Shown: positions 5,129 to 59,047, counted from the first letter of the stretch. The stretch: 64,000 bases of DNA from Candidatus Avedoeria danica (GCA_016703025.1 JADJCV010000003.1:23506-87505), one strand, 5' to 3'. Program-made: numbers and translations. The notes: generated by a model from the letters alone, not told the origin.

Positions 5129-5130
5129 TA

Positions 5131-42620: not shown

Positions 42621-45600
42621 ATGATGCACCCGCCTCGCTCGCCCATGCTCACGCGCACCGCCGTATTCGTCGGCCTCGCCGCCGTCGCGTGCGCGGTCCC
42701 CATCGCCGTCGCCGCCCGGCGCGCCGACGTCGGCGCCACCGCACCTGTGCAGGCCCGGCCCCGGGCCCAGTTCCTGGCCCAGTCCCAGCCGCAGCCGCCG
42801 ACCGCATACGCGTTGGCCGGCGAGTGGGTGTGGCCGGAGCGGCCGATGCTGCCGGTGGATGTCGCGTTTCTGGAGGACGGGCGCGTCGTGGTGGCCGATG
42901 GTCGGAACCCGCGCGTCGTCGTCGTCGGCCCCGAGGGGGACGTCGAGGCGGTGTGGCGGACGGCGTACGAGCCCGTGGCGCTGGCGGTGGATCCGGCGGG
43001 CGGGCGGGTGTACGTGCTGTGCTTCGCGCAGACGCGGGCGCGCGTCGGGCGGGATGCCGTGGTGACGACGCACGAGGTTCTCGAGACCTGGGCGCTGGAC
43101 GGGCAGCGGGTGCGACAGGATGTCCTGCCGGGATGGTCGACGGCCAGCGCCGACGAGGCGCCGAGCTGGGATGTCGCGGTGGCGTGGGGCGGGGCGCCGG
43201 TCGTGCAGGCCGACAACGTGCTCTACCGCGTGACGCTGTCCGATGACGACGCCGTGCCTGCGACGTTCACGCCGCTGTCGGGCCTCTCGCGCGGCACCGC
43301 GGTGCGCCCGGTTCGCCTTGCCGCGGCGGACGACGGGCTCGTCATCGCCCAGGCTGCGACCGGCATCGTGTCCCGCGTGGACGCCACCGGGCGCACCGTG
43401 GCGCGCCGAGACTGGCCGGGCGAGCGCGTGCTCGACGTCGCGATCGACCGCCGCGAGCGGGTGCACGTCCTCGTCGGGCCGGGCGAAGGCGGTGCGGGCG
43501 GCCGGGTGCGGCACATCGTCCTGAGCGCCGCGCTGGCACCGCTGGACGATCGGCCGTTGGCGGACGACGCCGCGCCTTCGGCGACCATCGCCCCCGCACA
43601 GGCCGCGTTCGCCTGGGCGCTCGACGTGTACGGCGACGGCGTGGCGGTCGTCGGGGGCGGGGCCAACCTGTCGCTCCGGCGCTGGACGGGGCCGGTGTCG
43701 GACGCGCCGGCCGTCGTGCAGCCGTTCGGTGCGCGTCCGGCCGCGTTCGACGCGCGCGACAAGCGCGTGGCCGGCAGCCGCGCGCTGGCCCTCGGCGCGC
43801 TGCCCGACGGCCGGACGGTGGCCCTTGATGGGCCGCAGGCGCGTGTCGTGGCATTCGACGCGTCCGGTCTCGGGACGAACGTCGTCACGTTCGCGGGCGA
43901 CGCGGTCGATGCGGCCGTGGCGGAGGACGGGACGGTGTGGGCGACGTTTGCCGACGGCACGGTGCGGCGCGTGACCGGACCGGGACTCGGGTCGCTTGGC
44001 GCGGCGCCTGACGACCCATCCGCCGCGCGATGCGAATGCCCGCTCGGCGGTCGGATCGCGGTGGACCGTTCGCGCGCCTACGTTTCCCGGCCGACGAGCC
44101 GAACGGTGGCCGGGATCGCCGGTTTGGCCGGCCTTGCGCCCGACGATGCACCGGGCGGTGCGTCGCCGCGGCTGCTCGCCTGGGCGGAGGGCGTCGGCCT
44201 CTGGCCGAGCGACATCGCGGTGGCCGCCGACGGTACCGTGCTGGCGGCGGATGCGATCGCGGGCGAGATCGTCGGGTGGTCGCCGGGGTCGCTCGAGGGT
44301 GCGCCGCCGGACCGGCGCTGGCCGGCGGGGCTGCTGGCCGGGCCGCGGCGGCTCGCGGCGGGGCGCTTCGGCGGGCCGGGCGGCCTGGATCTGGTGGCCG
44401 CCACGCTGACGGACGGTGCCGTCGAGGTCCACCGCGGCGACGACGGCGGACTGCTGGCGCGCTTCACGCCGGTTGTCGACGGGGCCGTCGTGTCGGCCGA
44501 GGACGTGGCGCTGCACGCGGATGGGCGGATCGTGTTGGCCGAAGCGGTCTCGCGCCGGGTGCACGCCTTCGTGCCGTCCGCGGCGCCGGTCGACCCGACC
44601 GAGCCCGGCGGGCTGGGTGCCACCCCATCGCCGACGCCGACGCCGTCGGACGGGAGCTGTCGTGTGAGCGGCGACAAGCGGGTCGGGCCGGAAACGATCG
44701 TGCTCGGCCAGACGGCCGCCGTCACGTTGACGCTCTCGGCTGATTGCCCGCCGCGCGCGCGGCTAGCCGGGGCCGACATCGTCCTCGTGCTCGATCGCTC
44801 CGGCTCGATGTACGGTGAGGCGATGCAGCGCGCCAAGGACGCGGCCCGGACGTTCATCGAGCTCCTCGATGTCCGGCGGCACCGCGCGGCGCTCTTGTCG
44901 TTCGCCGGCTTCGTGACCGTCGACGCGCCGCTGTCGACGGACAGCGCGGCGGTCATCCGGGCCCTCGACACGCTCGTGCCGGACGGCGGGACGAACCTGA
45001 CGGACGCGATCCGCCAGGCCGGCATCGTGCTCGGCCGCGAAGGGCGGGCGGATGCGTTGCCGGTCATCGTCCTGATGACGGACGGGCGCGACTCGAACGG
45101 GCGCGACGGGCCGCTCCAGGCGGCCGGAGATGTGAAGGCGCAGGGCGTCCAGATCTACACGATCGGCCTCGGGCGCGACCTCGACGAGGGCGGGCTGCAG
45201 GCGATCGCAACGCGCCCCGACCGCTACTTCCACGCGCCGACGCCCGACGAGCTCTTCCCGATCTATCGCCAGATCCTGCGCTTGGTGGAGACGAGCCTCG
45301 CCGGCAACCTGATCGTGACGGACCGGCTGGGCGACCGGATGGCGATGATCGGTGGTTCCTCGGCACCGGCAGCGCTCGAGGGCGCCGACCGTCTGTCGTG
45401 GGGCCGCTCGATCCTGCCGGCCTCCGGTGTGACGTTCACCTACCGCGTGCGCCCGATCGAAGCCGGTCGCTGGCCGGTGAACCGCGAGGCCGTCGCCCGC
45501 TACGCCGATGCGGACGGGGTCGAGCGCTCGTTCGTCTTCCCGGTGCCGCAGATCCTCGTCCTGGCGCCCACCCCCACCCCCACCGCCACACCGACCTCGA

Positions 45601-46298
45601 CCCCGACGCCGACGACGACGCCCACGCCCACCCGCACGCCGACGTCGACGCCGTCGCCGACGCCGACGCACACCGCGACGATCACGCCATCCCCGACCGC
45701 GACACGCGTCCCGCGGCCGATCTACCTGCCGCTCGCGCTGAACAGCCACTGCATTCCGACCGGCCAGTACGTCGACCTGATCCTCGTGCTCGACACCTCG
45801 GCCTCGATGGCCGGCGACAAGTTCGCGGCCGCCCAGGCGGCGGCCCGGACGTTCGTCTCGCTGTTCGACCCGCCGCGCGACCGCCTGTCGCTCATCAGCT
45901 TCAGCGAGGTTGCCACGCTCGTCGTGCCGCTCGGGTCGAGCACGACCCGTCTGCGCGCCGGCATCGACGGCCTGGCCCTTGCCCCCGGCACGCGAATCGA
46001 CCGCGCGCTGGAGGCGGCACGGGCCGAGCTGCGCTCGACGCGGCGCCGCGCGGCGAACAAGCCCGTCGTCGTCCTGCTGTCCGACGGCAGCCAGTCCGGC
46101 GAGACCGCACCGCTCCTGGCGGCCGCCGACCGCGTGCTCGCCGACGGCGTCACCGTCCACACGATCGGCCTCGGCCCGGACGCCGACCGCGCGATGCTCG
46201 AGCGGATCGCCTCCCGGGGCGGGTTCCGGTACGCGCCGGGAACGGCGGAGCTGGAGGGCGTGTACCGCGCGATCGCCGGGCAGACGCGGTGCCGGTGA
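42621..46298 (+). CDS. Large secreted protein with an N-terminal NHL/beta-propeller-like repeat region (about 690 aa) and two VWA domains separated by a PT linker (VWA paralog 1)
   Basis: Signal peptide (MLTRTAVFVGLAAVACAVPIAVAA). The exact start among 42561 (TTG), 42588, 42621 and 42645 is unresolved. Propeller-like repeats (VDVAFLEDGRVVVADGRNPRVVVV, PSDIAVAADGTVLAADAIAGEIVGW). VWA1 is ADIVLVLDRSGSM...VLMTDGRDS...IYTIGLG. PT linker TPTPTATPTSTPTPTTTPTPTRTPTSTPSPTPT. VWA2 is DLILVLDTSASM...VLLSDGSQS...VHTIGLG. Confidence 0.75.
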   Translation: MMHPPRSPMLTRTAVFVGLAAVACAVPIAVAARRADVGATAPVQARPRAQFLAQSQPQPPTAYALAGEWVWPERPMLPVDVAFLEDGRVVVADGRNPRVVVVGPEGDVEAVWRTAYEPVALAVDPAGGRVYVLCFAQTRARVGRDAVVTTHEVLETWALDGQRVRQDVLPGWSTASADEAPSWDVAVAWGGAPVVQADNVLYRVTLSDDDAVPATFTPLSGLSRGTAVRPVRLAAADDGLVIAQAATGIVSRVDATGRTVARRDWPGERVLDVAIDRRERVHVLVGPGEGGAGGRVRHIVLSAALAPLDDRPLADDAAPSATIAPAQAAFAWALDVYGDGVAVVGGGANLSLRRWTGPVSDAPAVVQPFGARPAAFDARDKRVAGSRALALGALPDGRTVALDGPQARVVAFDASGLGTNVVTFAGDAVDAAVAEDGTVWATFADGTVRRVTGPGLGSLGAAPDDPSAARCECPLGGRIAVDRSRAYVSRPTSRTVAGIAGLAGLAPDDAPGGASPRLLAWAEGVGLWPSDIAVAADGTVLAADAIAGEIVGWSPGSLEGAPPDRRWPAGLLAGPRRLAAGRFGGPGGLDLVAATLTDGAVEVHRGDDGGLLARFTPVVDGAVVSAEDVALHADGRIVLAEAVSRRVHAFVPSAAPVDPTEPGGLGATPSPTPTPSDGSCRVSGDKRVGPETIVLGQTAAVTLTLSADCPPRARLAGADIVLVLDRSGSMYGEAMQRAKDAARTFIELLDVRRHRAALLSFAGFVTVDAPLSTDSAAVIRALDTLVPDGGTNLTDAIRQAGIVLGREGRADALPVIVLMTDGRDSNGRDGPLQAAGDVKAQGVQIYTIGLGRDLDEGGLQAIATRPDRYFHAPTPDELFPIYRQILRLVETSLAGNLIVTDRLGDRMAMIGGSSAPAALEGADRLSWGRSILPASGVTFTYRVRPIEAGRWPVNREAVARYADADGVERSFVFPVPQILVLAPTPTPTATPTSTPTPTTTPTPTRTPTSTPSPTPTHTATITPSPTATRVPRPIYLPLALNSHCIPTGQYVDLILVLDTSASMAGDKFAAAQAAARTFVSLFDPPRDRLSLISFSEVATLVVPLGSSTTRLRAGIDGLALAPGTRIDRALEAARAELRSTRRRAANKPVVVLLSDGSQSGETAPLLAAADRVLADGVTVHTIGLGPDADRAMLERIASRGGFRYAPGTAELEGVYRAIAGQTRCR

Positions 46299-46344
46299 CG
46301 AACTCGCACGTCCCCCGCGACATGACTAGAATGAGCGTTGGTCA

Positions 46345-46356
46345 GAACGAATGTTC
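46345..46356. promoter_or_regulatory. LexA-box-like site GAACGAATGTTC (Cheo consensus), 48 nt after the VWA1 stop and upstream of a small zinc-ribbon-like ORF
   Basis: aGAACGAATGTTCg fits CGAAC-RNRY-GTTCG as well as the two boxes at lexA. A -10-like TAGAAT (46327-46332) sits 12 nt upstream, which is the classic repressor-over-TSS geometry. Confidence 0.45.
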
Positions 46357-46392
46357 GCATCCGCCCGCCCGATCCCCGATGGAGCACTGCCC

Positions 46393-46812
46393 ATGAGCTT
46401 CCAACAGCGACCCCAACGCCGCACTCCGCGCTGCCCGTGGTGCGATCAGGAGATGGTCCCGAGTCCCGACAGCCGCGGCGGCCGCCTCTTCTGCCCGACG
46501 GGCGAGGCGGTCGAATACCGTTTGAGCGGCGGGCGGTGGTACTTCAACGGGCGCCTGAACGGTCTCGACGAACCGATTCCACCGGCGCCGGATGACGGTG
46601 ATCCGACGGGCGCGGGCGAGGATGAGGCTGCCGTTTCCTCGAAGCGGGTGGAGATGCGCGATCGTACGGATGCGTCGGCTCCGTCGGCTCCGTCGGCGCC
46701 GCCGGAGCCGACGGAGCCGGTTCAGCCAGAGTCGCTCGATCCGCTCGATGCGTTCCGACAGATCGCCAGCGATGCGTGGGGTGCGGCGGATGCGGACGAA
46801 GAGGCGGAGTAG
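46393..46812 (+). CDS. Small acidic protein (139 aa) with an N-terminal zinc-ribbon-like CPWC-x15-CP motif and a disordered Pro/Asp/Glu-rich tail; candidate SOS-regulated gene
   Basis: GGAG 8 nt upstream of ATG 46393. The track ORF starts at 46351, inside the LexA-like box. GC3 about 70%, lower than neighbours, so coding status is uncertain. Confidence 0.4.
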   Translation: MSFQQRPQRRTPRCPWCDQEMVPSPDSRGGRLFCPTGEAVEYRLSGGRWYFNGRLNGLDEPIPPAPDDGDPTGAGEDEAAVSSKRVEMRDRTDASAPSAPSAPPEPTEPVQPESLDPLDAFRQIASDAWGAADADEEAE

Positions 46813-46853
46813 GGTCGCGTTGGGGTGAGGGAAGGCGTAGGGCACGGGAGGAA

Positions 46854-46978
46854 GTGCAGAGCCGGCGGGCGGGGGTGGTTGGGGACGGGGCATTTTGGTT
46901 CGTGCATTTTGTTCGCAGGGGCCGCTTGGCCCCTGCACCCCAGCCAGGGGGCGCAGCGCCCCCCTGGACCCCCCGCAT
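46854..46978. repeat. Left arm of a 125-bp near-perfect inverted repeat (partner at 47218-47344)
   Basis: Reverse complement of 47218-47344 except cattttggttcg vs ctttttgggttcg. Contains nested hairpins caggggcc-gctt-ggcccctg and gggggcgc-a-gcgccccc. Confidence 0.7.
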
Positions 46979-47217
46979 CGGAATTTCCGGTCGTTCAAGC
47001 ACGCGGTCTCGCGCCCGGAAGAGGTCTGGCGGATCGAAGTGCGGCACAGAGTAGTTGGTGGACCGCCCCGCGGCGTGCGGGCCAAAAACGTCAACGAGCA
47101 AGATGACATCCCAACGATCTTGCTCGATCAATTGCCTGCTCGTTCGACGGGATTGGGGCGTCCGCTCCAATCTACGCGCCGACGACAATCCGCGGCGGCC
47201 ATAGAAGCGAAACCTGG

Positions 47218-47344
47218 TGCGGGGGGTCCAGGGGGGCGCTGCGCCCCCTGGCTGGGGTGCAGGGGCCAAGCGGCCCCTGCGAACAAAATGCACGAACCCA
47301 AAAAGCCCCGTCCCCAACCACCCCCGCCCGCCGGCTCTGCACCC
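47218..47344. repeat. Right arm of the 125-bp inverted repeat; the 238-bp lower-GC core lies at 46979-47216
   Basis: See the left arm. Followed by a roughly 150-nt polypyrimidine (C/T-rich) leader up to the VWA paralog 2 start codon. Confidence 0.7.
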
Positions 47345-47501
47345 CGTCCCCTGCCCTACCTCTTCCCTTGCCCGACCTCCCACACACCCCCCCCCAACGC
47401 CCCACGCGTCCGATCACACCCTGCTATCCTTCCCCCCCGGTCGCGCCTTCTACCTCCTGCCGCACGCCGTTCGCGCCCGACGCCCAGCCGGGGGAGCCTG
47501 C

Positions 47502-50500
47502 ATGTCGATCCAACCGAAGGCCGACCCCCGGTCAGCCACGACGCTGTGCGCCGCCGCCACTCGAACCCCCATCCCTCGGGCCCCGCGCCTCTCCTCCGCG
47601 GTCGCCGCCTGTTGGGCAGCTGCACTCACGCTCGCCCTCACACTCGCCGTTGCGCTCGTCCCAACATCCCATGACGCCGCATCCGGCAGCCCCGCCGCCC
47701 AGCTCACCGCCGCCGCCTGGCGCAACACCGCCACCCACCTCCTCCCGCCCCCGCCCCCCTTCCCGCTCGCCCTCGCCTTCGACGACGCCGGCGGCCTCTA
47801 CATGGCCGACGGCCGGACGCGCCGCGTGGCGCGCTACGACGGCGCGGGGGCCGTCACGGGGGGGTGGGACGTCGACGGCGTGCCGCTGGCCCTGACGTGG
47901 GACGCGACCGAACGGGTGGTCCTCGTCTTTGTCTTCACCGGCGCCGGGCCGTTTGTCGAGGCCTGGCGGCCGGACGGCGTGCGTCTCTGGAGCGACCGCG
48001 TCACGGACCAGTTCGTCCGCGGCCTCGAGGACCAGCTGTCCGTCGATCTCGGCTGGGCCGTCGGCGACGTCGGACCGACCGTGCTCTTCAACGGCGAGGC
48101 GTCGCGCTACGACCGGGCCAGCGGCCTCCTCCAGCGCGCCGGCGGGCGCTGGATCGCCGCCGACGGCCGGCCGATGCGGATGGCCGTCCTCTCCGCCACG
48201 CTCCTCGCCGCGATCGAGCCCGCGCAGCAGCGGCTGCTCTTCGTGGACATCGCCCGCGGCGTCCGCGCCACCGTGCCACTCACGGACGTCGTCCCGCTGG
48301 CCGTTGCCGCCGGGCCGGTCCTGGCATTCTCGTCCTCCGCCGGTACGACGACCGCCCCGCCCGTCGTCGCTCACGTGCTGGCCCGCGGCGTCGAGCGCGA
48401 TCGCGTCGGCCTCGTCGTGCTCAGCATCGCCCCGGACGGCCGCGAGGTCGGGCGCTGGGCGGTGCCGCCGGCGCTCGGCGGCGCGCCCGGCGACGACGCG
48501 GCGCGCTGGTCGATCGCCGTCGGCGCCGACGGCCTGGCCTTCACGCGCGGCGTCGAGCGCTTCAGCCTCGAGCGCTTCGGGCCGGGCGGGCAGCACCGCT
48601 TCAGCGTGCCGATGGGCCGCATGGCCGGCACGTTCGGTCGCCGCGCCGCCCGGACCCGCGCCAATTTGGTCAGCGGCTCGGCCGCCCTCGGCCTCGCCGC
48701 CGGTCCGGACGGTGCGCTGGCCGTGCTCGACGGCCCGGGCTCGCGGATCCTCGCGCTCTCCGTGGACGGTGCGGCTGCGGGCAGCGTGCTCCAGCAGACC
48801 GTCCTGCCCTACGACGTCGTCGACATCGCCTCGGATGCGGACGGGGCGATGTCGAAGCCCGCCACGGCCCGCTACTTCGTGTCGCTTGCCGACGATCGGA
48901 TCCGCCGGGTGAGCGCTGCCGCCGATGTCGCGCGCTTCACCGACCCGTGGACGGCCGACTGCGGCTGCCCGCTTGGTGGACGGATGTCGATGGGCGGCGG
49001 ACGGCTCTGGCTCACGCGGCCGGCGACGCGCCGCGTGGCGGAAATGGAAGTCGATGCCGGGTCGGTGCGCGAGGTCGTCAAGGCGGGCGCGATCGGGCTC
49101 TGGCCGGCGGATATCGCGGCCGGCGAGGACGGCAGCGTCTGGGTGGCCGATGGGATCGTCGGGCGCGTCGAGCGCTGGCGGCCTGGGGCGTCCGAACCGG
49201 CAGCGGCGTGGCAGGCCGGTGTGCTGAACGGCCCGCGCCGGCTCGCGGCCGGACGATTGGCGGACGGGACGGACGCCGTTGCCGTGCTGCTGGCCGACGG
49301 CCATATCGAGATCCATGAGCGCGCCGGCGGCAACCTCATCGCGGCGTTCAAGCCGCGCCTGATCCCCGACGAGCCGTTGCTGGCGGACGACTTGTTCATC
49401 ACCGCCGGCGGTTCCCTTGCCCTGGCCGACGCCGCGCGGCGTGCCGTGCACATCTTCGCTCCCGTGGGTGCGGCGACGCCAACGCCCGACGCGACGCCGA
49501 ACGCAACGCCCGACACCGTGCCGACCAGGACGCCCGGCGCAACGCCGACGGCGATCGTCGGCGGCGGCACGTGCCGGGTCTCGGGCGACAAGGCCGTTGG
49601 GCCGAACCGGATCCTCCTCGGCCGGACGGCGGCCGTGACGCTGACGCTCAGCGTCGACTGCCCGGGCCAGCCGCGGCTACTCGGGGCGGACGTGATGCTC
49701 GTCCTCGACCGCTCGGTGTCCATGTCCGGAGACGGGCTGGCCGGGGCGAAGGCGGCGGCGCTCCAGTTCGTGTCGCTGCTCGACGTGCGCGTGCACCGCG
49801 TCGGCCTCGTTTCGTTCGGGACGGACATCCGGTTGGAGGCGGCGCTCGGCGCCGACCCGGTGCCGGTGGCCAACGGGATCAACCGACTGGTGGCCGGCGG
49901 CGAGACGAACCTCGGCGCGGCGCTCCTGGCCACCGGGCGCCACATGGAAGCGCGGCGGCGCGCGGACGCCCAGCCCGTCATCGTCCTCCTGACGGACGGC
50001 CATGACACCGTCCAGGACGCCGACCCGGTGGCCACCTCGCTCTGGCTGAAGGGCTGGGGGGTCCAGATCTACGCCGTTGGGCTCGGCGAGAGCGCGGATG
50101 CCGCATCGCTCGACCCGCTGGCGACGGACCCCGCCCACGTCTTCCTCGCGCCGTCGCCCAACGAGCTTGCGCCGATCTACGCCCAGATCGTCCGCCGTGT
50201 CGGGACGTCCGGACTGGTGGCCAACCTCAGCGTCGACGACGATCTCACGCCCGGGATCGGCCTCGAGCGCGGCTCGGCCCAGCCGCCGGCCCTCGAACGC
50301 CCGGACGGTCTGTCGTGGGGCCGGGCGGTCCTCGGCCCCGAGGGGTTCGCCGCCGAGTTCGTCATCCGTCCGACCGCGGCAGGTCGCCACGCGGTCAGCC
50401 GCTCGGCCGTCGCGCGCTGGACGGACGCCGACGGCGCCGTGTACGCCTTCCCGTTCCCGCCGGTCGAGATCGAGGTGTACGTTCCGACCGCCGTGCCGTC

Positions 50501-51113
50501 CCCGACGCCGACAGCGACGCCGGAACCGTACCGCGCCTACCTGCCCGTCCTCTGGCGCTCGGCCTGCATCCCGGCGCCCAAGCCGGCGGACGTCGTGCTC
50601 CTCATCGACACGTCCAGCAGCATGACGGGCGACAAGCTGGCCCAAGCCAAGACCGCCGCCAAGACGTTCGTCGGCCTGCTCGACCTCCCGCGCGACCACG
50701 CCGCCGTCGTCTCGTTCGACGAGGAGCCGCGCGCGACGACCGGGTTGTCGGGCAGCCTGGCGGCGCTCGAGGCGGCCATCGGGTCCCTCACGAACGGCAC
50801 CGGAACGCGGATCGACCGCGCCCTCGAGGCCGCGCACGCCATGCTGGCCACGACCCGTGCCGATCCGTCGCGCCGCGCCGTCGTCGTGCTCCTGACGGAC
50901 GGCGGCCAGTCCGGACCGCTCCCGCCCGTTCTCACCGCCGCCGAAGCGCTCCGGACCAGCGGGACCGTGCTCTACGCCGTCGGCCTCGGCCCGGACGCCG
51001 ACCTGGCGCTCCTGCGCACCGTCGCCGGCCCCGGCCGCCTCTTCACCGCGCCCACGCCGGCCGATCTGGCGGCCATCTACGCGGAGGTGGCGGCGGTGAC
51101 GGGGTGTCGGTGA
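47502..51113 (+). CDS. Large secreted NHL/beta-propeller-like protein with two VWA domains separated by a PT linker (VWA paralog 2, tandem to 42621..46298)
   Basis: Start Met96 of the track ORF with GGGGGAG 5 nt upstream. Signal peptide MSIQPKADPRSATTLCAAATR...AACWAAALTLALTLAVALVP. Same architecture and conserved blocks as paralog 1 (RVSGDKAVGPNRILLGRTAAVTLTLSVDCP...DVMLVLDRSVSM...; ...DVVLLIDTSSSMTGDK...LLTDGGQSG). Ends ...AVTGCR like paralog 1 (...GQTRCR). Confidence 0.8.
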   Translation: MSIQPKADPRSATTLCAAATRTPIPRAPRLSSAVAACWAAALTLALTLAVALVPTSHDAASGSPAAQLTAAAWRNTATHLLPPPPPFPLALAFDDAGGLYMADGRTRRVARYDGAGAVTGGWDVDGVPLALTWDATERVVLVFVFTGAGPFVEAWRPDGVRLWSDRVTDQFVRGLEDQLSVDLGWAVGDVGPTVLFNGEASRYDRASGLLQRAGGRWIAADGRPMRMAVLSATLLAAIEPAQQRLLFVDIARGVRATVPLTDVVPLAVAAGPVLAFSSSAGTTTAPPVVAHVLARGVERDRVGLVVLSIAPDGREVGRWAVPPALGGAPGDDAARWSIAVGADGLAFTRGVERFSLERFGPGGQHRFSVPMGRMAGTFGRRAARTRANLVSGSAALGLAAGPDGALAVLDGPGSRILALSVDGAAAGSVLQQTVLPYDVVDIASDADGAMSKPATARYFVSLADDRIRRVSAAADVARFTDPWTADCGCPLGGRMSMGGGRLWLTRPATRRVAEMEVDAGSVREVVKAGAIGLWPADIAAGEDGSVWVADGIVGRVERWRPGASEPAAAWQAGVLNGPRRLAAGRLADGTDAVAVLLADGHIEIHERAGGNLIAAFKPRLIPDEPLLADDLFITAGGSLALADAARRAVHIFAPVGAATPTPDATPNATPDTVPTRTPGATPTAIVGGGTCRVSGDKAVGPNRILLGRTAAVTLTLSVDCPGQPRLLGADVMLVLDRSVSMSGDGLAGAKAAALQFVSLLDVRVHRVGLVSFGTDIRLEAALGADPVPVANGINRLVAGGETNLGAALLATGRHMEARRRADAQPVIVLLTDGHDTVQDADPVATSLWLKGWGVQIYAVGLGESADAASLDPLATDPAHVFLAPSPNELAPIYAQIVRRVGTSGLVANLSVDDDLTPGIGLERGSAQPPALERPDGLSWGRAVLGPEGFAAEFVIRPTAAGRHAVSRSAVARWTDADGAVYAFPFPPVEIEVYVPTAVPSPTPTATPEPYRAYLPVLWRSACIPAPKPADVVLLIDTSSSMTGDKLAQAKTAAKTFVGLLDLPRDHAAVVSFDEEPRATTGLSGSLAALEAAIGSLTNGTGTRIDRALEAAHAMLATTRADPSRRAVVVLLTDGGQSGPLPPVLTAAEALRTSGTVLYAVGLGPDADLALLRTVAGPGRLFTAPTPADLAAIYAEVAAVTGCR

Positions 51114-51152
51114 CTGCTGCCACCCCGTGACACGCGCGCCCGTTGGTTCTTT

Positions 51153-54100
51153 TCAGCGCCGCCCCGCCCAAGGCAGCCAAACCACCCGTTCGCGCCCCGG
51201 CGTGAGCACCGGCGGCGGCGTGCGCGGCTCCGGCGTGCCCGTCGGCTCGATCGTCGGCCGCGGCGTCATCGTCGGGGGCGGGGTGGCGGTCGGGAGGAGC
51301 GTGTCCAGGAAGCCGGACGGGAAGTAGGCGTAGCCGGACTGCTGACCGAACCGGTACGCGAGGCGCGTGAAGCGCGTGCTCTCGCCGATGCGGGCCGCTT
51401 GCGGCCGCACGACGACGCCGATCAGCTGCGGCCGGCCGCGCGGCAGGCGCTCGAACGTCCAGATCGCTTCGGCCGGGTGGTCGGGGTCCAACGTTCGTGG
51501 CAGCGGCACGTACTTGTCGAAGTCGGGCTCGATGTCCTCCGGATAACCCTCGATGATCTGAATGGCCGTCGGCTGTACATTGCCGAGGTCGGCGGCGATG
51601 CCCTTGAACAACTCCACGAGCAGTGCGCTGTCCGGGGCGAGCAGCGCATCGGGCCCGCTCGAGGCGACGGATGCCAGCTCAGGGTCGCAGTCGCCGGCGC
51701 AGACCGTGATGATCCGGATGCCCTTGGCCTTCATCCCCGTCGCCGTCGCGAGCATCACCGGCGCCGCGCCGGCCGCCTCGCGGCCGTCCGTCAGGAGGAC
51801 GACCGCGCCGACGGCGTCCGGCCGGCGGGCATCGAGCAGTCCCTCGGCGGCGACGAGGGCGCTCGTGATCGCCGTCCGGCCGTTGGCCTCGAGCCGGGCG
51901 AGGGCGCTGCGGACGGCCCGGAAGTCGGCGTCCAGCGGCAGCCGGGCGTCGACCTCGGTGCTGAACGTCACGAGCCCGACGCGGGTGCCGGACGGCACGC
52001 CGTCCAGGAAGCCCTCTGCGGCCCGCACGGCGTTCGTCAGGCGAGACTGGCTGGCCATCGAATCGGAGTGGTCGATGACGAGCACGACGTCCAGCTTGGC
52101 GGTCGTCGGCGGGCAGACCAGCGCGGCGGAGAGCGTGAAGGTGATCGGGTCGCCGGCGACGGCACCGGCCCGGCGCGGCAGGCGATCGAGGTCGGGCGTG
52201 CACGGACCGGCGGTGCCGGGGGGGAAGACCGTCACCGCGGGCGATGCAAGGCGGGTCGTGGCCGAGCGGTCGACCTCGTCGACGAACGTCAGGCGCGTGT
52301 CCGTGCCGAGCGGCAAGTCCGTGCCGAGCGCCTGTGGCTGGACTGCATAGCGCACCGACTCGCTGCCGGCTCCGGAGCGGGTCGTCACGTGCCACGTCAG
52401 CCGCTGGCCATCGATCGCATCGGGCGGCGGCACGGCCGAGTCGGCGACGTAGCGCATGTCCGGCGGCAGCGTTTCCTCGATCGTGGCTTGCTTGATCCGG
52501 ATCGTGCCGTACCGGTGGGCGAGGGCGCTGAGGAGCCCGTCGAGCCCGGTCGCGTGAACGGTGTGGTGCTCGCTCGGGCCGCTGGCCGACTGTTCCAGCG
52601 CCGGGTGGCAGCGCACGTCGATGCAGATCGTCGTGACGCGGACGCCGTCGGACTTGAGCCGGTCGGCCGCGGCCAGCAGCGCCTCAGGGGCCTGGTAGCC
52701 GTCGGTGATCAGGATGACCCCGGCCGCGGCGTCGGGGCGCCGCCACTGCAGCTCGTCACCGGCGGCGGCCAGGCCGGCGGACATGTTCGGCTCACCGAAA
52801 CCACCGCCCGTGATGTCGCCCAGCGAGTCGAGCGTGCCGTGGATGCGGTCGAGGTTGGCCGAGAGCGGCACGCGCAGCACGCGCTGATCCAGCGTCACGA
52901 GGCCGGCGTTGACGTCCAGCGCAGCCGTCTCGTAGAGCAGCGTCCGCACCGCACCGCGAATCCGCGAGAGCTCGTCGACCGTCATCGTCACGCCGGCATC
53001 CAGGACGATGACGAGGTCCTGCCGCCGCAGATCGGTCGGACAGTTCGTGTCGAACGCCACCGTCACGTTCACCGGTTGCGACAGCACGACGCTCGGCTCC
53101 CAGCGCGTCTTGACCGCCGGCGGCGTGCAGGCGGTGCCGGCCGATGCGGCGATGACGGACAGCGGCGCGCCGGGCAGGCGCAGGCGGGCCGAGCTGTACG
53201 CGTCGTTGTACACCAGCCGCGCCGTGCCCTCGCCGGCGTAGCGGACGGGGCCGAGCGCCGCGGCGGTGAAGCTGTAGCGCACGTGCAGCGGTACATCCAC
53301 CTGTGCCGCGAGCGGGCCGATGTGGAGCCCGGCCCCGTCCGCGGTGACCGAGCCGGGCGTGCTCGTCACGGCGCTGCCGGGGACGTACCGTGCGCCGAGC
53401 GGCAGCACGTCGTCCACGGCGATGGAAGTCAGCGCGGCGGCCGTGCCGCGATGCTCGGTGAGCACCCGGCCGAGGAGGATCGCGTCGCGCAGGCGCTGCA
53501 GGTCGGGGAAGTCGTAGGCCCACGTGAGCGCCGGGTCGCAGCCGCCACCGACGCAGATCGGCACGATCTCGATGCCGCGCGCGTCCGCTCGCTTCAGCGC
53601 CGCCGCGACGGCGGACGGGGAGGACCGGACGGCCAGCGAGTTGCCGATGTAGTACACGATCTCGTGCGACAGCGGCTGGCGCACGATCGTGTCGATGGCG
53701 GCGTTCAAGGCGGCCACGGCGGTGCCGCCGGACTCGCCCCGCCAAGCGCGGATCGGGGCGTTCAGCGTGTTCACGTCGCGCGTCGGCGGGACGACGACGG
53801 GCTGCGGCGCGACGTTCCAGACGATGCCGTATATCCCGTCCGCGCCGCCCGGCGGATCGTACCACGCGCGCGCCGTCGTCACGTAGCGCTCGATGTTCTC
53901 GTCCGTCAGGCCCGCCGGCGGCTGGAGGGCGATGATCCCGTTGGACTGCACCGGGAAGGCCCAGCAGCCGCGCGGGGTGAACTGCAGCGTGACCTCGACG
54001 CGGTCGCCCGGACGGGCCGCTTCCGGGTTGTAGCGCCGGCTGGCCTCGAGCCGGCAGTCGCTGTCGGCGCGCGGGACGACGACGGTGAGCGGGATGTCGA

Positions 54101-54680
54101 TGTCGGCGGTGAGCGGCCGGCGCTCGAGGAGCGGCTCGGGCTCGCGCCGCAGCAGCCGCGTGGTGTCGAACGCGACGCCCCAGGCGTAGCGCGCTTCGCC
54201 GGCGGCGCTGACGGCCGGGTCAACCGGGGCGGCGCGCAGGCGGTAGCGGACCTCGCGGATCATGATGCCCCCGTCCTCGGCACCGGCGGCGAACCGCCAC
54301 ACCGCCTCCGTCGGCGACCATGCGTCCGGCGGCGGATCGGTGCCGTCGGGTCCGGGGCTGATCGGGCTGAGCGTCAGGCCGGCCGGCAGCGTCTCGGTGA
54401 TCGCCATGCCCTGCAGATCGTCGATGCCCGCGATGCCGCAGTCCACCTCGGCCCAGATCGCGACCTCGACCTCGCCGCCCCAGGCCACCTTCGAGACCTG
54501 CACGCCGTTGCGGTAGAAATCGCGGCTGTAACGGGCGCTGCACGGGCGGTCCGCCGCGGCGGGGCGGGCCAGCGCGCTTCCGCGGGCCGGCCCGGCGGCG
54601 AGGCAGCAGATGGCCGTGGCCAGCACGGGGGCGGCCAAGACGAACGGCGTTCGCGTTCGGCGGACGATGGCGACGGCCAT
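51153..54680 (-). CDS. Large secreted multi-VWA-domain protein (about 1175 aa), convergent with VWA paralog 2
   Basis: Start Met16 (MAVAIVRRTRTPFVLAAPVLATAICCLAAGPARG, signal). At least three MIDAS-type motifs (LVIVLDAGVTMT, VVLVIDHSDSMAS, plus LITDGYQAP and LLTDGREAAG). C-terminal PT segment (TATPPPTMTPRPTIEPTGTPEPRTPPP). Confidence 0.75.
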   Translation of the reverse strand: MAVAIVRRTRTPFVLAAPVLATAICCLAAGPARGSALARPAAADRPCSARYSRDFYRNGVQVSKVAWGGEVEVAIWAEVDCGIAGIDDLQGMAITETLPAGLTLSPISPGPDGTDPPPDAWSPTEAVWRFAAGAEDGGIMIREVRYRLRAAPVDPAVSAAGEARYAWGVAFDTTRLLRREPEPLLERRPLTADIDIPLTVVVPRADSDCRLEASRRYNPEAARPGDRVEVTLQFTPRGCWAFPVQSNGIIALQPPAGLTDENIERYVTTARAWYDPPGGADGIYGIVWNVAPQPVVVPPTRDVNTLNAPIRAWRGESGGTAVAALNAAIDTIVRQPLSHEIVYYIGNSLAVRSSPSAVAAALKRADARGIEIVPICVGGGCDPALTWAYDFPDLQRLRDAILLGRVLTEHRGTAAALTSIAVDDVLPLGARYVPGSAVTSTPGSVTADGAGLHIGPLAAQVDVPLHVRYSFTAAALGPVRYAGEGTARLVYNDAYSSARLRLPGAPLSVIAASAGTACTPPAVKTRWEPSVVLSQPVNVTVAFDTNCPTDLRRQDLVIVLDAGVTMTVDELSRIRGAVRTLLYETAALDVNAGLVTLDQRVLRVPLSANLDRIHGTLDSLGDITGGGFGEPNMSAGLAAAGDELQWRRPDAAAGVILITDGYQAPEALLAAADRLKSDGVRVTTICIDVRCHPALEQSASGPSEHHTVHATGLDGLLSALAHRYGTIRIKQATIEETLPPDMRYVADSAVPPPDAIDGQRLTWHVTTRSGAGSESVRYAVQPQALGTDLPLGTDTRLTFVDEVDRSATTRLASPAVTVFPPGTAGPCTPDLDRLPRRAGAVAGDPITFTLSAALVCPPTTAKLDVVLVIDHSDSMASQSRLTNAVRAAEGFLDGVPSGTRVGLVTFSTEVDARLPLDADFRAVRSALARLEANGRTAITSALVAAEGLLDARRPDAVGAVVLLTDGREAAGAAPVMLATATGMKAKGIRIITVCAGDCDPELASVASSGPDALLAPDSALLVELFKGIAADLGNVQPTAIQIIEGYPEDIEPDFDKYVPLPRTLDPDHPAEAIWTFERLPRGRPQLIGVVVRPQAARIGESTRFTRLAYRFGQQSGYAYFPSGFLDTLLPTATPPPTMTPRPTIEPTGTPEPRTPPPVLTPGRERVVWLPWAGRR

Positions 54681-54825
54681 GTGCGACTCCGTGGTGCGAT
54701 CGGCGCGGCACGCCAGGAAGAACACGCGCCGACCGCGGATCTGGACAGCTGATCAAGGATAGGGACAGCGGACTCCGGCTGAAGGTTGCACCGTCCGCCG
54801 GAAGGCGCTCTGCTAGGATAGCGCG

Positions 54826-56733: not shown

Positions 56734-56864
56734 TCTGGGGCGTCGCGGTGTCGGTTGCGGCGGTTGCGACGGGTGCGCGGCGGCTGCGCGGCGGTGAAAC
56801 GGCGTTTCGGACATCCGAATCCACGGTAGGCTGCGGGGGTTGTCAGAACAAGGAGGCCCCGCAG

Positions 56865-58370
56865 ATGCTTGGCTATGCCGTTGTCGACCGTTTCGCGCGT
56901 AGCACCGCCGTCCTCGCCATTGCCTGGATGTCAGTGCCCGGCGTTGCCGTTAAGTCGCCGACGCCGACTCCCTATCCCGTGTCGCTCACGCTCGAGGACG
57001 CGCGGCGGAGCGTGCGCGAGCGGATGGGCGCCGCGCCGGGCCTGCGCGTCGGCGGTGCGGCGTACATCACCGGCCGCGATCTCTTCGAGCGTTGGCCCTA
57101 TCGCCCCGGCGTCGCGAACGCCGGACTCACGTACCTCGATGCGATCCATTCATTCGACTCGCGATCCACGGAGCCTCCGGCCGCGCCGCTCGCCGACGTC
57201 GTCGTGGTCGTCGAAGGTTCGATCGCGCCGCGCCCGCGATCGGTCCCCGCGGACGACTGGCACCGCGTCGCAACGTCCTTTGTGCTGACCACATCGCTCG
57301 GCTGCGCGCGCTTTGACGGCACGCCCCGCGCACCGTTCCACGCCGTTCTCGATGCCCGGACGGGGCAATGGCTGGGCGCGAGCTGGCTGGAGGTGGCGTG
57401 GCAGACATGCCTGCTGCGCGATCTGACGACGGCCACGCTACCGCACATCACCCTCGCGACGCCGCTGCCGACGACGGCCGCATCCGCGCCGACGGCGACG
57501 CCGCGCCGTCCGCAGTCGTGGCCGTGGCCCGCCGACGGGCCGACGCCGCGGCCGCCCGATCTGCCGGACTACGCTTGGCAGCCGCGGCCCCTCGCGCGTG
57601 GCCAGGTACCGGCGGCCCTGGCGAAGATCGCCGCCGACGTGCCGGTCGCTGCGGGGGCGCGTTGGCGGTACGAGTGGTCGTCGATGACGAACTACACGTT
57701 CTACGAGCGGCAGGACGTCGTGACGGAGACGATCGACGCGGCCTGGCAGATCGGACCGGACGTCATGGTGAGCCACGTCTCGACGAGCCCCGGCATGCGT
57801 GTTATGTGGGGACGAGACGGAGTCTGGCTGTACACCTTCCCGAACGGCTTCGCGACGAACCTGCAGGTGCACCGTGGACTCGGGCCGGATCACAAGCCGT
57901 CCCTTTCGATCATGCGAAGGTGGCTCGACAAGATCGCGATCGAAGATGGACAGGAGGCATCGGAGATGGCGGCCAACGCATTGAACGAGGGCGTCGACAC
58001 GCTGGCGATCGACGCGTTGCCGTGGCCGCCCTCGGTCTGGCACTACGCCACCTGGGCGTGGCACTGGAGCGGCGACGCGGACGTGCGCGTTCCGGCCGGC
58101 CGGTTCCGCGGTTGCCACGGGCTTGACGTTGCCTGGGGCTCGAATTCCGGACGGGCATACGATTGGTTCTGCTCCGGGATCGGCCTCGTGCGGCATGACT
58201 ATCACGACTACGGCATGGGTTACGGCGACAACGCGATGGAGCTCGTGGCCTACGACATCCCGCCCCTCGTCGCCCGCGACGCCCCGCCGTTGCCAACGAC
58301 GACCGCGACACCGACCAAGACTCCGGCTGCGCCCGTCGCCCGTCGAACCATCAGCCTCATCCGCCAGTAG
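56865..58370 (+). CDS. Secreted hypothetical protein (501 aa), Trp-rich C-terminal domain
   Basis: AAGGAGG 8 nt upstream of ATG 56865, in frame with track ORF 55911..58370. Signal-like N-terminus MLGYAVVDRFARSTAVLAIAWMSVPGVAV. C-terminal PT tail. Its 3' end overlaps the convergent Uma2 gene by 14 nt. Confidence 0.6.
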   Translation: MLGYAVVDRFARSTAVLAIAWMSVPGVAVKSPTPTPYPVSLTLEDARRSVRERMGAAPGLRVGGAAYITGRDLFERWPYRPGVANAGLTYLDAIHSFDSRSTEPPAAPLADVVVVVEGSIAPRPRSVPADDWHRVATSFVLTTSLGCARFDGTPRAPFHAVLDARTGQWLGASWLEVAWQTCLLRDLTTATLPHITLATPLPTTAASAPTATPRRPQSWPWPADGPTPRPPDLPDYAWQPRPLARGQVPAALAKIAADVPVAAGARWRYEWSSMTNYTFYERQDVVTETIDAAWQIGPDVMVSHVSTSPGMRVMWGRDGVWLYTFPNGFATNLQVHRGLGPDHKPSLSIMRRWLDKIAIEDGQEASEMAANALNEGVDTLAIDALPWPPSVWHYATWAWHWSGDADVRVPAGRFRGCHGLDVAWGSNSGRAYDWFCSGIGLVRHDYHDYGMGYGDNAMELVAYDIPPLVARDAPPLPTTTATPTKTPAAPVARRTISLIRQ

Positions 58371-59004
58371 GCCCGAACACGTCCTCCACCCGAATCCGCA
58401 CGTCTCCAAACGCCCCCGGCACCACCGCCTCCCCCCGCCCATACCGCACCACCGACGCGTACCCCTTGCCGTCCGCCCTTGGCTCGCGGTGCACCTCGAT
58501 CACGCTCTCCGCGACGGCGACGACCCAGTACTCCGGCACGCCGGCGCGGGCGTACATCGGCGCCTTGACGCGGCGGTCGAAGCGGAGGGTGGAGTGGCTG
58601 ATCTCGATGACGAGGGCGCAGTCGGCGGCGGTGATCGAATGCGCCTGCAGCTCGGCCGGTGTGTAGGTCCGCTGGAGCACGGCGAAGTCCGGCATCGGCA
58701 TGGACCAGCGGTCCATCTTCACGGAACTGCTCGGAAGGATGTCGGCCCGGCCCTTGAACTGATCGTAGATTACGCGGCCGAGAAAGACGCTCGCGGAATT
58801 GTGGCCGCCGCCTGTCGGGGACATCGTGTAGATCTCTCCATCGATCAGCTCGACCCGCGCGTCCGGTGGCAGCTCGGCCGCACAGAAGCGGACGAACATG
58901 TCGACGTCGAACCGCAGCTTGGTCGGCGCGCGGCCACGGGATGGCGAGATAAACGCGGACGGCGCGCCTGGCGCATTCGGTTGCACCATCGGTGAGACGG
59001 TCAT
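58357..59004 (-). CDS. Uma2-family (DUF820) PD-(D/E)xK endonuclease-like protein, tandem paralog A
   Basis: 215 aa from MTVSPMVQP. RFDVDMFVRFCAAELPPDARVELIDGEIY...DFAVL...ALVIEISHSTLRFDRRVKAPMYARAGVPEYWVV is the Uma2 signature (ELIDG, D-x-E/A-x-E, YAxxGIxEYW). SD GAGGGTGG upstream. Confidence 0.75.
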   Translation of the reverse strand: MTVSPMVQPNAPGAPSAFISPSRGRAPTKLRFDVDMFVRFCAAELPPDARVELIDGEIYTMSPTGGGHNSASVFLGRVIYDQFKGRADILPSSSVKMDRWSMPMPDFAVLQRTYTPAELQAHSITAADCALVIEISHSTLRFDRRVKAPMYARAGVPEYWVVAVAESVIEVHREPRADGKGYASVVRYGRGEAVVPGAFGDVRIRVEDVFGPTGG

Positions 59005-59047
59005 GGCCACCCTCGATTCGTGAATCGAAACCGTACGGTCGTCGCCT

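What the first reader, a model, noticed from the sequence alone, without database searches (positions are those of the whole stretch)
46854..47344. 125-bp near-identical inverted repeats around a 238-bp lower-GC core, between two tandem paralogous VWA surface-protein genes
The following are seen directly in the sequence:
- Arms 46854-46978 and 47218-47344 are reverse complements that differ at only about 3 positions.
- Each arm contains nested hairpins.
- Weaker inverted similarity continues about 50 bp further out, purine-rich on the left and a roughly 150-nt polypyrimidine leader on the right.
- The 238-bp core (46979-47216) is about 57% GC against a background of about 72% and has its own 9-bp stem (gagcaagat ... 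atcttgctc).
- The structure sits exactly between the stop of VWA paralog 1 and the start of paralog 2.

The three possibilities below are inference. It could be a MITE-like non-autonomous element. It could be a homologous-recombination inverton whose core orientation switches expression of the downstream surface protein. Or it could be a structured RNA or long-hairpin insulator/terminator. No recombinase or transposase is nearby.
Basis: partly seen in the sequence, partly recalled or inferred. Interest (0 to 1): 0.72.

Follow-up and report, generated by a model that had tools for sequence, protein, structure and literature searches.

The report
Dispersed flip-flop palindromic repeat, Ardenticatenales
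The inverted repeat is real, but it is one copy of a small non-coding repeat family found at four or more places in the genomes of a group of wastewater Chloroflexi; its middle part lies in opposite orientations in related lineages, and nothing yet shows that it works as a gene switch.

Summary
Two ~126-nt arms (46852-46977 / 47218-47346) are reverse complements that differ by one mismatch and one indel. They enclose a 240-nt core.

Some details are wrong. The core is 62% GC, not 57%. A conserved 139-aa ORF (46393-46812) lies between VWA paralog 1 (stop at 46298) and the element.

It is not a local oddity. The same ~480-515-bp element sits in at least four unrelated intergenic contexts in Ardenticatenales (Chloroflexota) MAGs and wastewater metagenomes.

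- **Orientation:** at two loci (VWA and mevalonate operon) orthologous flanks align colinearly while the core is inverted between lineages. Within a lineage every assembly shows one orientation.
- **Core type:** core variants cluster by lineage, not by locus. This points to homogenisation or replacement among copies.
- **Absence:** a more distant relative lacks the element at the VWA locus.
- **Not found:** coding capacity, Rfam match, covariation, target-site duplication, or a recombinase or transposase in the window.
- **Downstream gene:** paralog 2 keeps its own conserved promoter-like block outside the element.

Best reading: an undescribed low-copy foldback (MITE-like) repeat whose long arms recombine, flipping the core. 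A trans-controlled inverton family or an embedded RNA or DNA site remains possible, because 69 nt of the core are almost invariant.

The parts
42621..46298 (+). VWA/NHL surface-protein paralog 1 (context). Its stop is at 46298, not next to the repeat.
   Evidence: Translation. Pfam hits VWA x2 and NHL. 41% identical to paralog 2.
46393..46812 (+). Conserved small ORF of 139 aa with a CxxC...C motif and no Pfam family. This is the gene that actually lies upstream of the element.
   Evidence: Translation. The exact protein is found on 6 metagenome contigs. Orthologues at 58-99% identity.
46817..46851 (.). Copy-specific outer extension of the inverted repeat, left side. It is G-rich and pairs imperfectly with 47347-47400.
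   Evidence: The orthologous left flank is present in L015, but L015 and SJ541 have a different right flank. The window's right-hand copy is therefore a lineage-specific inverted copy of the left flank.
46852..46977 (.). Left arm, the part shared by the whole family. It begins GTGCAGAGCCGGCGGGCGGGG. It contains a G-quadruplex-type motif at 46867-46890, hairpin 1 at 46915-46936 and hairpin 2 at 46944-46967.
46978..47046 (.). Core, 5' segment of 69 nt. It is almost invariant in all six copies compared, with four singleton changes. It starts with the small palindrome CGGAA-T-TTCCG.
   Evidence: Alignment A2.
47047..47135 (.). Core, variable middle. Its length differs between copies, giving cores of 219, 239 or about 260 nt. 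It includes the window/L017-specific 9-bp-stem hairpin at 47096-47125.
47136..47217 (.). Core, 3' segment. It is conserved but less so, and carries 1-nt indels between copies.
47218..47346 (.). Right arm, the reverse complement of the left arm. Hairpin 2' is at 47228-47251 and hairpin 1' at 47259-47280. It ends ...CCCCGCCCGCCGGCTCTGCAC.
47347..47400 (.). Copy-specific outer extension of the inverted repeat, right side. It is C-rich.
47419..47457 (+). Conserved promoter-like block, CCCTGCTATCCT...CGCGCCTTCTACCTCC, with an extended -10-like TGCTATCCT at 47422-47430. It lies outside the element and is retained in a relative that lacks the element. That it is a promoter is inference.
   Evidence: Conserved in L008, L009 and L015 and in L032. 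A similar TGCTATCAT lies 9 nt before the MVD start in L016 and L017.
47502..51113 (+). VWA/NHL paralog 2 (context). The ribosome-binding site GGGGGAG is at 47490-47496.

Best explanation
The structure is one copy of an undescribed, non-coding, low-copy dispersed repeat of about 480-515 bp. Each copy has two ~126-nt arms around a 219-260-nt core. The family is confined, as far as seen, to one clade of Ardenticatenales (Chloroflexota) from activated sludge and wastewater.

I read it as a foldback-type, MITE-like element, mobile now or in the past, whose long near-identical arms recombine with each other. That recombination has two effects:
- It keeps the two arms of each copy alike and lets the palindrome creep outward into the flanks.
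- It occasionally inverts the core, so the two orientations are fixed in different lineages.

Recombination or gene conversion between copies, which the symmetric arms allow in either orientation, or replacement by newly active variants, makes copies of one lineage resemble each other more than their positional orthologues.

At this locus the element lies between the stop of a small conserved ORF and the separate promoter-like block of VWA paralog 2. Its most probable local effect is passive: a very stable hairpin in read-through RNA that separates the two transcription units.

**Shown:**
- the repeat structure;
- multiple copies;
- both orientations;
- clustering of core types by lineage;
- absence in a relative;
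- absence of coding capacity.

**Inferred:**
- mobility;
- recombination between the arms as the cause of the flips;
- gene conversion;
- any effect on transcription.
For: **1. Multiple copies**
- A 25-mer from the arm found four contigs in JGI metagenome Ga0138256. Two spurious ORF calls led to two more loci.
- The contexts are:
  - VWA locus: window, L002/L005/L006, L009, L015, L019.
  - Mevalonate operon, IPK -> element -> MVD: L016, L017.
  - Upstream of a Reg_prop surface-protein gene: L013 = L018.
  - Next to an ArfB-like gene, with a truncated left arm: L014.
- Similarity stops at GTGC(A/T)GAGCC...GGCTC(T/A)GCAC in each context. An nhmmer model scores every copy at 435-557 bits.

**2. 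Both orientations at orthologous loci**
- L015 flanks align with the window at 92% on the same strand, while its element aligns on the opposite strand.
- L019, from an independent sample, shows the same.
- L016 and L017 flanks align at 88-89%, with the core inverted between them.
- The orientation calls are unambiguous: 557 vs 259 bits.

**3. Arm homogenisation**
- The two arms of a copy differ at 2 positions in the window, 2 in L018, 5 in L015 and 5 in L016. Arms of different copies differ at up to 18 positions.
- Terminal variants are mirrored on both arms of a copy: TCTGGGCC in L018 and GTGCTGAGCC in L016.

**4. Palindrome spreading**
- Outer IR extensions are copy-specific.
- The window's right flank carries an inverted copy of the left flank that its orthologues lack.

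**5. Lineage-specific core types**
- The window core is 98.3% identical to the L017 core, which sits at a different locus. It is only 75-77% identical to the cores at its own locus in L015 and L019.
- The L013 core is 92-94% identical to the L015 and L014 cores.

**6. Absence in a relative**
- L032 keeps the small ORF, the promoter-like block and the start of paralog 2. Its 361-bp spacer has no similarity to the element.

**7. No coding capacity**
- Open frames shift between copies.
- A search of 5.8 billion proteins found only two ORFs, both read across copies of the element itself.
Against: - **No target-site duplication** is seen at any of five complete copies.
- **No partner:** no autonomous element with the same ends, and no transposase, was found.
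- **No recent movement:** no insertion polymorphism is seen among close relatives, and the same loci are occupied in several lineages. Recent mobility is therefore not shown.
- **No clean empty site:** the locus without the element (L032) is too diverged to serve as one.
- **Low copy number:** at least 4 loci, which is low for a MITE.
- **Invariant core segment:** the 69-nt 5' core segment is more conserved than the arms, the termini and the protein-coding flanks. A purely selfish or neutral element does not predict this, and it hints at a function I have not identified.
- **Cause of the flips untested:** the flips could equally come from a site-specific recombinase encoded elsewhere.
- **L017 lineage assumed:** that L017 comes from the same or a closely related lineage as the window is inferred from the core type, not shown.
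Confidence: 0.55

Rival explanations
1. It is a small family (regulon) of programmed invertible cassettes. A recombinase encoded elsewhere acts in trans on the shared arms of all copies, in the way Mpi acts on many promoter regions in Bacteroides fragilis. It flips a core that carries an orientation-dependent signal (promoter, terminator or binding site), giving phase-variable expression of adjacent genes, including the VWA and Reg_prop surface proteins.
For: - Both orientations occur at two of the two loci where lineages could be compared.
- Copy number is low and positions are conserved just upstream of gene starts at three loci. Two of those genes encode large secreted or surface proteins.
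- The arms and the 69-nt core segment are conserved more strongly than neutral sequence, as expected for recombinase or regulator sites.
- Lineage-specific core types would fit co-evolution with a trans factor.
Against: - Within each lineage all assemblies show one orientation. The window type is forward in the window, L002, L005 and L006. The P0004 lineage is inverted in L015 and L019, from two separate samples.
- No recombinase is found in the 64-kb window.
- The arms, about 126 nt, are far longer than usual inverton repeats. More than 75% of PhaseFinder invertons are under 300 nt in total (PMC11602134).
- No sigma-70-like promoter is found in the core.
- Paralog 2 and MVD carry their own conserved promoter-like motif outside the element.
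- One target is a housekeeping mevalonate operon.
- Orientation relative to the downstream gene differs between loci of what appears to be one lineage.
Confidence: 0.17
2. The core, or its invariant 69 nt, is a functional trans-acting unit present in a few paralogous copies. It could be a small RNA gene or a protein-binding DNA site. The long arms would serve only as insulating or terminating palindromes. Orientation relative to neighbours would then not matter, so flips would be tolerated.
For: - The 5' core segment is almost invariant across lineages whose coding flanks differ by 8-12%.
- Orientation is not constrained.
- Copies sit in intergenic regions only.
Against: - No Rfam family matches at E<=10 inside the element.
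- The core folds no better than shuffles, with z = -0.46 on the + strand and -1.64 on the - strand.
- RNAalifold finds 0 (+ strand) and 1 (- strand) compensatory pairs among six copies.
- No promoter or terminator consensus is found.
- The middle hairpin is not conserved.
- Six closely related sequences give little power, so this evidence is weak in both directions.
Confidence: 0.15
3. It is a fortuitous local inverted duplication of promoter or leader sequence between the two VWA genes, with no wider significance.
For: - The outer part of the inverted repeat in the window is indeed a local inverted copy of flanking sequence.
Against: - The same arms and core occur in at least three other, unrelated genomic contexts.
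Confidence: 0.02

Closest known systems
MITEs / foldback-type non-autonomous transposable elements of bacteria (e.g. Correia/NEMIS, Nezha, Chunjie; recalled from my own knowledge)
   Same: - It is small (about 0.5 kb) and non-coding.
- It has terminal inverted repeats.
- It is intergenic, has several dispersed copies, and one copy is truncated.
- It sits close to promoters and between genes of an operon.
   Different: - The arms are about 126 nt, a quarter of the element each.
- No target-site duplication was found.
- No parent IS is known.
- Only about four loci were seen.
- The interior is more conserved than the termini.
- Positions are shared between lineages.
- The core is found in both orientations.
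REPINs (REP doublets forming hairpins) mobilised by RAYT transposases
   Same: - It is extragenic and palindromic, with two inverted units each containing short GC-rich hairpins around a spacer.
- It persists vertically at orthologous positions.
- It forms sequence populations specific to a lineage (10.1101/2021.07.10.451892; REPORTH, 10.1101/2024.10.14.618302).
   Different: - REPINs are about 100 bp and typically present in hundreds of copies. Their spacer is variable and their REPs conserved.
- Here the element is about 490 bp and has about four copies.
- Part of the 'spacer' is the most conserved segment.
- No RAYT or Y1 transposase was seen.
Invertible promoters (invertons), including the multi-locus Mpi system of Bacteroides fragilis (Coyne et al. 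2003, cited in PMC11602134)
   Same: - It is an intergenic segment bounded by inverted repeats.
- It is found in both orientations.
- It lies upstream of surface-protein genes.
- Several dispersed loci share repeat and core sequence.
   Different: - The repeats are several times longer than usual.
- No invertase was found.
- No promoter was detected in the core.
- Each lineage shows a single orientation.
- The downstream genes have their own promoter-like motif outside the element.
Flip-flop inversion between long inverted repeats by general homologous recombination (plastid IRs, yeast 2-micron plasmid, IS- or rrn-mediated bacterial inversions; recalled from my own knowledge)
   Same: - Long near-identical inverted repeats are kept alike by recombination or conversion.
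- The enclosed segment is found in both orientations.
   Different: - The scale is different: the segment is 240 nt rather than kilobases to megabases.
- The unit is itself a dispersed repeat.

Membership tests
MITE (miniature inverted-repeat transposable element) | Terminal inverted repeats | tested here: met
   Arms of about 126 nt with 1 mismatch and 1 indel in the window. All complete copies have both arms.
MITE | Small size and no transposase or other coding capacity | tested here: met
   The element is 476-514 bp. Open frames are not conserved between copies. The only two protein-database hits are ORFs read across copies of the element.
MITE | Multiple dispersed copies with unrelated flanks | tested here: met
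   At least four distinct loci. This is a lower bound, because no complete genome could be scanned.
MITE | Target-site duplication flanking each copy | tested here: not met
   No direct repeat abuts the termini in the window, L015, L016, L017 or L018. In some copies the flanks are instead inverted relative to each other. The boundaries may be blurred by spreading of the inverted repeat, so this result is not final.
MITE | A related autonomous IS with the same ends, or insertion polymorphism showing mobility | tested here: inconclusive
   No transposase is found in the window. There are no matches in plasmids, phages or viral contigs. L032 lacks the element, but its spacer cannot be aligned. 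The genome and metagenome scan quotas were exhausted.
REPIN / REP-RAYT system | About 100-bp doublet of short (~14-bp palindrome) REPs, hundreds of copies, variable spacer | tested here: not met
   The element is about 490 bp with about 4 loci, and part of the spacer is invariant. Definition taken from 10.1101/2021.07.10.451892.
REPIN / REP-RAYT system | A cognate single-copy RAYT (Y1 transposase) flanked by the repeats | not testable with these tools
   No complete genome of the organism could be scanned. There is none in the window.
Inverton (site-specific invertible promoter) | Segment bounded by inverted repeats and observed in both orientations | tested here: met
   Opposite orientations occur at the VWA locus (window vs L015/L019) and at the mevalonate locus (L016 vs L017). 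These differences are between lineages, not within one population.
Inverton | Both orientations coexist within a clonal population (reversible switching) | not testable with these tools
   Only consensus assemblies were available. Each lineage shows one orientation in 2-4 assemblies.
Inverton | A dedicated serine or tyrosine invertase, usually adjacent | tested here: not met
   No recombinase domain is found in any sizeable ORF of the 64-kb window, nor among the genes called in the fetched flanks of L017 and L018. An enzyme acting in trans from elsewhere is not excluded.
Inverton | A promoter or other orientation-dependent signal inside the invertible segment | tested here: inconclusive
   The consensus scan found no sigma-70-like promoter or intrinsic terminator. 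Chloroflexota promoters are poorly defined.
Known structured RNA family (Rfam 15) | Match to a covariance model, or covariation supporting a fold | tested here: not met
   No hit inside the element at E<=10. There are 0-1 compensatory pairs. The core's folding z-scores are not significant.

The most novel reading that the evidence does not exclude
The roughly four dispersed copies form a co-ordinated set of invertible cassettes in an uncultured Chloroflexota lineage. A trans-acting recombinase, or the cell's own recombination machinery acting at a selected rate, would flip an orientation-dependent signal held in the near-invariant 69-nt core segment. This would link phase variation of large VWA and Reg_prop surface proteins with other loci. 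Alternatively, that invariant segment is a new multi-copy small RNA or protein-binding site that uses long palindromic arms as insulators.
Probability: 0.15. Interest if true: 0.7.

Novelty: new variant of a known kind. Interest (0 to 1): 0.4.

Why it matters
If the main reading is right, this is a tidy natural example of how long inverted repeats behave in a bacterial genome. The arms are homogenised, the palindrome creeps into its flanks, the enclosed segment flips, and copies evolve in concert. It occurs in a poorly studied, uncultured group of wastewater Chloroflexi.

It also matters for practice. The element breaks short-read assemblies at this locus, and it could be mistaken for a phase-variation switch of a surface protein.

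The near-invariant 69-nt core segment is unexplained. It is the one feature that could raise the finding above an ordinary repeat family.

Tried and rejected
- **Other copies in the window:** blastn at word size 7 and an nhmmer family model found none, nor any in 231 kb of fetched loci beyond the known ones.
- **Known RNA:** Rfam at E<=10 gave no hit in the element. ARAGORN found no tRNA or tmRNA in the window.
- **Core as structured RNA:** folding z-scores are -0.46 and -1.64. RNAalifold on six copies, both strands, gave 0 and 1 compensatory pairs.
- **Core as protein:**
  - The frames differ between copies.
  - A search with the minus-strand translation returned only two ORFs lying on copies of the element.
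  - A chimeric six-frame query failed completely, because 8000 low-complexity candidates were collected and none scored. That search was wasted.
- **Exact arm 31-mer against GTDB representative genomes:** 0 hits. It identified the organism group (Ardenticatenales MAGs) and gave L009.
- **Mobile-element collections:** viral contigs (two patterns), plasmids and phages (blastn) gave nothing.
- **Promoter and terminator consensus scan of 46300-47700:** nothing found. The arm hairpins are preceded, not followed, by T-runs when read inward. They are followed by A-runs when read outward. They are therefore not canonical intrinsic terminators (direct reading).
- **Search for a clean empty site:**
  - L030 has a different downstream gene.
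  - L026 ends 151 bp after the small ORF.
  - The P0007 contig had no DNA.
  - L032 lacks the element, but its spacer cannot be aligned.
- **Same genome for window and L017:** the window's SpoU protein was not found in GCA_963852785.1. The test of whether the window and L017 come from one genome therefore failed.
- **Mapping the crossover point from arm polymorphisms:** there are too few informative sites.
rejected. It is specific to the window/L017 core type.

Full report
**1. The observation**

The region was read directly and the two arms were aligned.
- 46828-46977 and 47218-47368 are reverse complements over 151 aligned positions at 94.7% identity. blastn gave the same result.
- From GTGCAGAGCC (46852) inward to the core, the arms differ by one A/T mismatch and one single-base indel.
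- Each arm contains two GC-rich hairpins. They lie at 46915-46936 and 46944-46967, mirrored at 47259-47280 and 47228-47251. Neither motif occurred in any of 100 shuffles.
- Weaker complementarity (78%) runs outward to about 46794 / 47402.
- The left flank is purine-rich (74%). The 155 nt before the paralog 2 start are 71% pyrimidine.

Two details are wrong.
- The core (46978-47217, 240 nt) is 62% GC, not 57%. The window as a whole is 72% GC.
- The element is not flanked directly by the two VWA genes. Paralog 1 stops at 46298.
- A 139-aa ORF (46393-46812) follows paralog 1. It is a real gene: the exact protein occurs on six metagenome contigs and it has orthologues at 58-99% identity.
- Paralog 2 starts at ATG 47502, behind a GGGGGAG ribosome-binding site.
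- The two VWA/NHL proteins share 41% identity.

**2. Organism**

- The closest genomes are Ardenticatenales (Chloroflexota) MAGs. MAG SJ541 encodes paralog 2 at 91% amino-acid identity.
- Identical or near-identical proteins occur in wastewater and activated-sludge metagenomes in ENA (PRJEB8087 and others), Logan and JGI.

**3. It is a dispersed repeat family**

The element has no second copy in the window. It has no match in Rfam, plasmids, phages or viral contigs.

A 25-mer from the arm, scanned against JGI metagenome contigs, hit four contigs of sample Ga0138256. Two spurious ORFs found with a translation of the element led to two more loci. Sequence comparison sorts them into four genomic contexts:

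| Locus | Context | Copies |
|---|---|---|
| A | VWA locus | window; L002, L005, L006 (same strain); L009 (SJ541, partial); L015 and L019 (a lineage about 92% identical in the flanks) |
| B | Between isopentenyl-phosphate kinase and mevalonate-diphosphate decarboxylase, inside a mevalonate gene cluster | L016; L017 (NCBI GCA_963852785.1) |
| C | Upstream of a divergently read Reg_prop surface-protein gene | L013 = L018 |
| D | Next to the end of an ArfB-like gene, with the outer about 75 nt of one arm missing | L014 |

- In every case similarity to the window ends at GTGC(A/T)GAGCC ... GGCTC(T/A)GCAC.
- An nhmmer model built from five copies scores all copies at 435-557 bits. It finds nothing else in 231 kb of related sequence.
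- Copy number is therefore low: at least four loci.

**4. Both orientations exist**

- **Locus A.**
  - L015 aligns with the window on the same strand on both sides. L015 1-2449 matches 44529-46979 at 92.4%, and 2709-8007 matches 47218-52484 at 91.7%.
  - Its element aligns on the opposite strand.
  - L019, from a different study, is the same.
  - The window strain has the 'forward' orientation in three further assemblies. SJ541 also has it.
- **Locus B.** The flanks of L016 and L017 align at 88-89%, but the core is inverted between them.
- **Strength of the calls.** The model separates the orientations clearly, e.g. 557 vs 259 bits.
- **Inner arm.** The inner arm variant (GCGCAGCGC vs GTGCGGCGC in hairpin 2) travels with the neighbouring end of the core. 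The exchange therefore happened in the outer part of the arms, or the whole unit was replaced.
- **Limit of the evidence.** Each lineage shows a single orientation in all its assemblies. What is demonstrated is inversion on an evolutionary time scale, not switching within a population.

**5. Signs of recombination and conversion**

- **Arm similarity.** The two arms of one copy are more alike than arms of different copies. They differ at 2 positions in the window and in L018, and at 5 in L015 and L016. Arms of different copies differ at up to 18 positions.
- **Mirrored termini.** Variants at the termini are mirrored within a copy: TCTGGGCC on both arms in L018, GTGCTGAGCC on both in L016.
- **Outer extension.**
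  - The outer extension of the inverted repeat is copy-specific. It is significant in the window and in L017 and absent in L015.
  - In the window, the right-hand extension is an inverted copy of the left flank. The orthologous left flank exists in L015, but L015 and SJ541 have a different right flank. The palindrome has therefore grown outward in this lineage.
- **Core types follow lineage, not locus.**
  - The window core (locus A) is 98.3% identical to the L017 core (locus B). It is 75-77% identical to the locus-A cores of L015 and L019.
  - The L013 (C), L014 (D) and L015 (A) cores are 92-94% identical to each other.
  - This requires homogenisation or replacement among copies. That L017 belongs to the window's lineage is inferred, and a direct test failed.

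**6. What the core is not**

- **Not protein-coding.**
  - Long open frames exist on both strands, as expected at 72% GC.
  - Between copies the frames shift across the variable middle and across 1-nt indels.
  - The only database proteins that match are ORF calls lying on copies of the element.
- **Not a recognisable RNA.**
  - There is no Rfam hit.
  - The core's folding energy is not unusual.
  - Six copies give 0-1 compensatory pairs, though the power of this test is low.
- **The central hairpin is not a family feature.**
- **No promoter or terminator signal.** The consensus scans found neither.
- **What stands out.** The first 69 nt of the core (46978-47046) show only four singleton changes in six copies. 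The coding flanks of those copies differ by 8-12%. I cannot explain this.

**7. Relation to the neighbouring genes**

- Paralog 2 has a conserved block, CCCTGCTATCCT...CGCGCCTTCTACCTCC, at 47419-47457, downstream of the element.
- The block is retained in L008, L009 and L015. It is also retained in L032, a relative whose small ORF is 67% identical and which has the same paralog 2 start but no trace of the element in its 361-bp spacer.
- TGCTATCCT looks like an extended -10 element. A similar TGCTATCAT lies 9 nt before the MVD start codon at locus B. The promoter assignment is inference.
- If it is correct, the downstream genes do not depend on the element for transcription.
- Orientation relative to the downstream gene is not consistent between loci.
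- A transcript reading through the element would fold into a hairpin of about 150 bp. The predicted energy is -475 kcal/mol, with z = -30. The likeliest local effect is therefore separation of the two transcription units. This is untested.

**8. Verdict**

- The finding is a real, well-defined element. It is best described as a new low-copy foldback, MITE-like repeat family whose long arms recombine.
- It fails one defining MITE test, because no target-site duplication is seen. Its partner and its mobility are unproven. I therefore do not file it as a MITE.
- It is far from a REPIN in size, copy number and conservation pattern.
- It lacks the invertase, the promoter and the within-population heterogeneity needed to call it an inverton.
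- No recombinase or transposase is present in the window.
- A programmed multi-locus switch, or an embedded RNA or DNA site, remains possible at about 15% each.
- The decisive data are read-level orientation counts, a whole-genome census and transcript mapping.

Noticed in passing
window 46393-46812 (+): A conserved 139-aa ORF lies between the two VWA genes. It has a CPWC...CP zinc-ribbon-like motif, an acidic/proline-rich tail and no Pfam family. Its 3' part contains four in-frame copies of a 9-nt repeat (46664-46724, coding SAPSAPSAP).
   Followed up: partly
window 47754-47793 (L033-L037 start here): Five independent metagenome contigs from different samples all begin 250-290 nt inside paralog 2, not at the inverted repeat. 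This may be a recurrent assembly break, a coverage drop-out or a strain-variable stretch in the extremely C-rich 5' part of the gene. The cause is unknown.
   Followed up: no
L009 (MAG SJ541) 160-260: The outer terminus of the right arm plus its flank (ACCCACCCCGCCCGCCGGC(T/C)CTGCACCCGTCCTTCTG) is tandemly duplicated. L015 carries a partial second copy of the terminus at the same place.
   Followed up: partly
L026 3448-3598: In a more distant relative, the small ORF is followed by about four tandem copies of a 22-nt unit (GGGAAGCCGTAGGCATCGGGCC). The unit resembles the window's left flank GGGAAGGCGTAGGGCACGGG. The spacer upstream of paralog 2 is hypervariable among relatives.
   Followed up: no
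window 5101-7320 (+), 42621-46298 (+), 47502-51113 (+), 51153-54725 (-): The window holds four large VWA-domain proteins. Three of them are clustered, with the third convergent on paralog 2.
   Followed up: partly
window 58357-59184 (-) and 59048-59827 (-): Two adjacent Uma2-family (putative restriction endonuclease, PF05685) genes are present. The stretch 56734-58356 upstream of them has no ORF with good codon-position GC signal.
   Followed up: no
window 46867-46890 (+ strand G-runs); 47297-47325 and 47365-47395 (C-runs): G-quadruplex-type motifs lie in the outer half of each arm, with the G-rich strand always running 5'->3' toward the core. All copies have G-rich left and C-rich right flanks. 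Their significance is unknown.
   Followed up: partly
L016 1168-1188; L017 4927-4950 (minus strand): The MVD gene appears to have a TGCTATCAT -10-like motif only 9 nt before its ATG. This suggests a leaderless mRNA inside what looks like a mevalonate operon.
   Followed up: no
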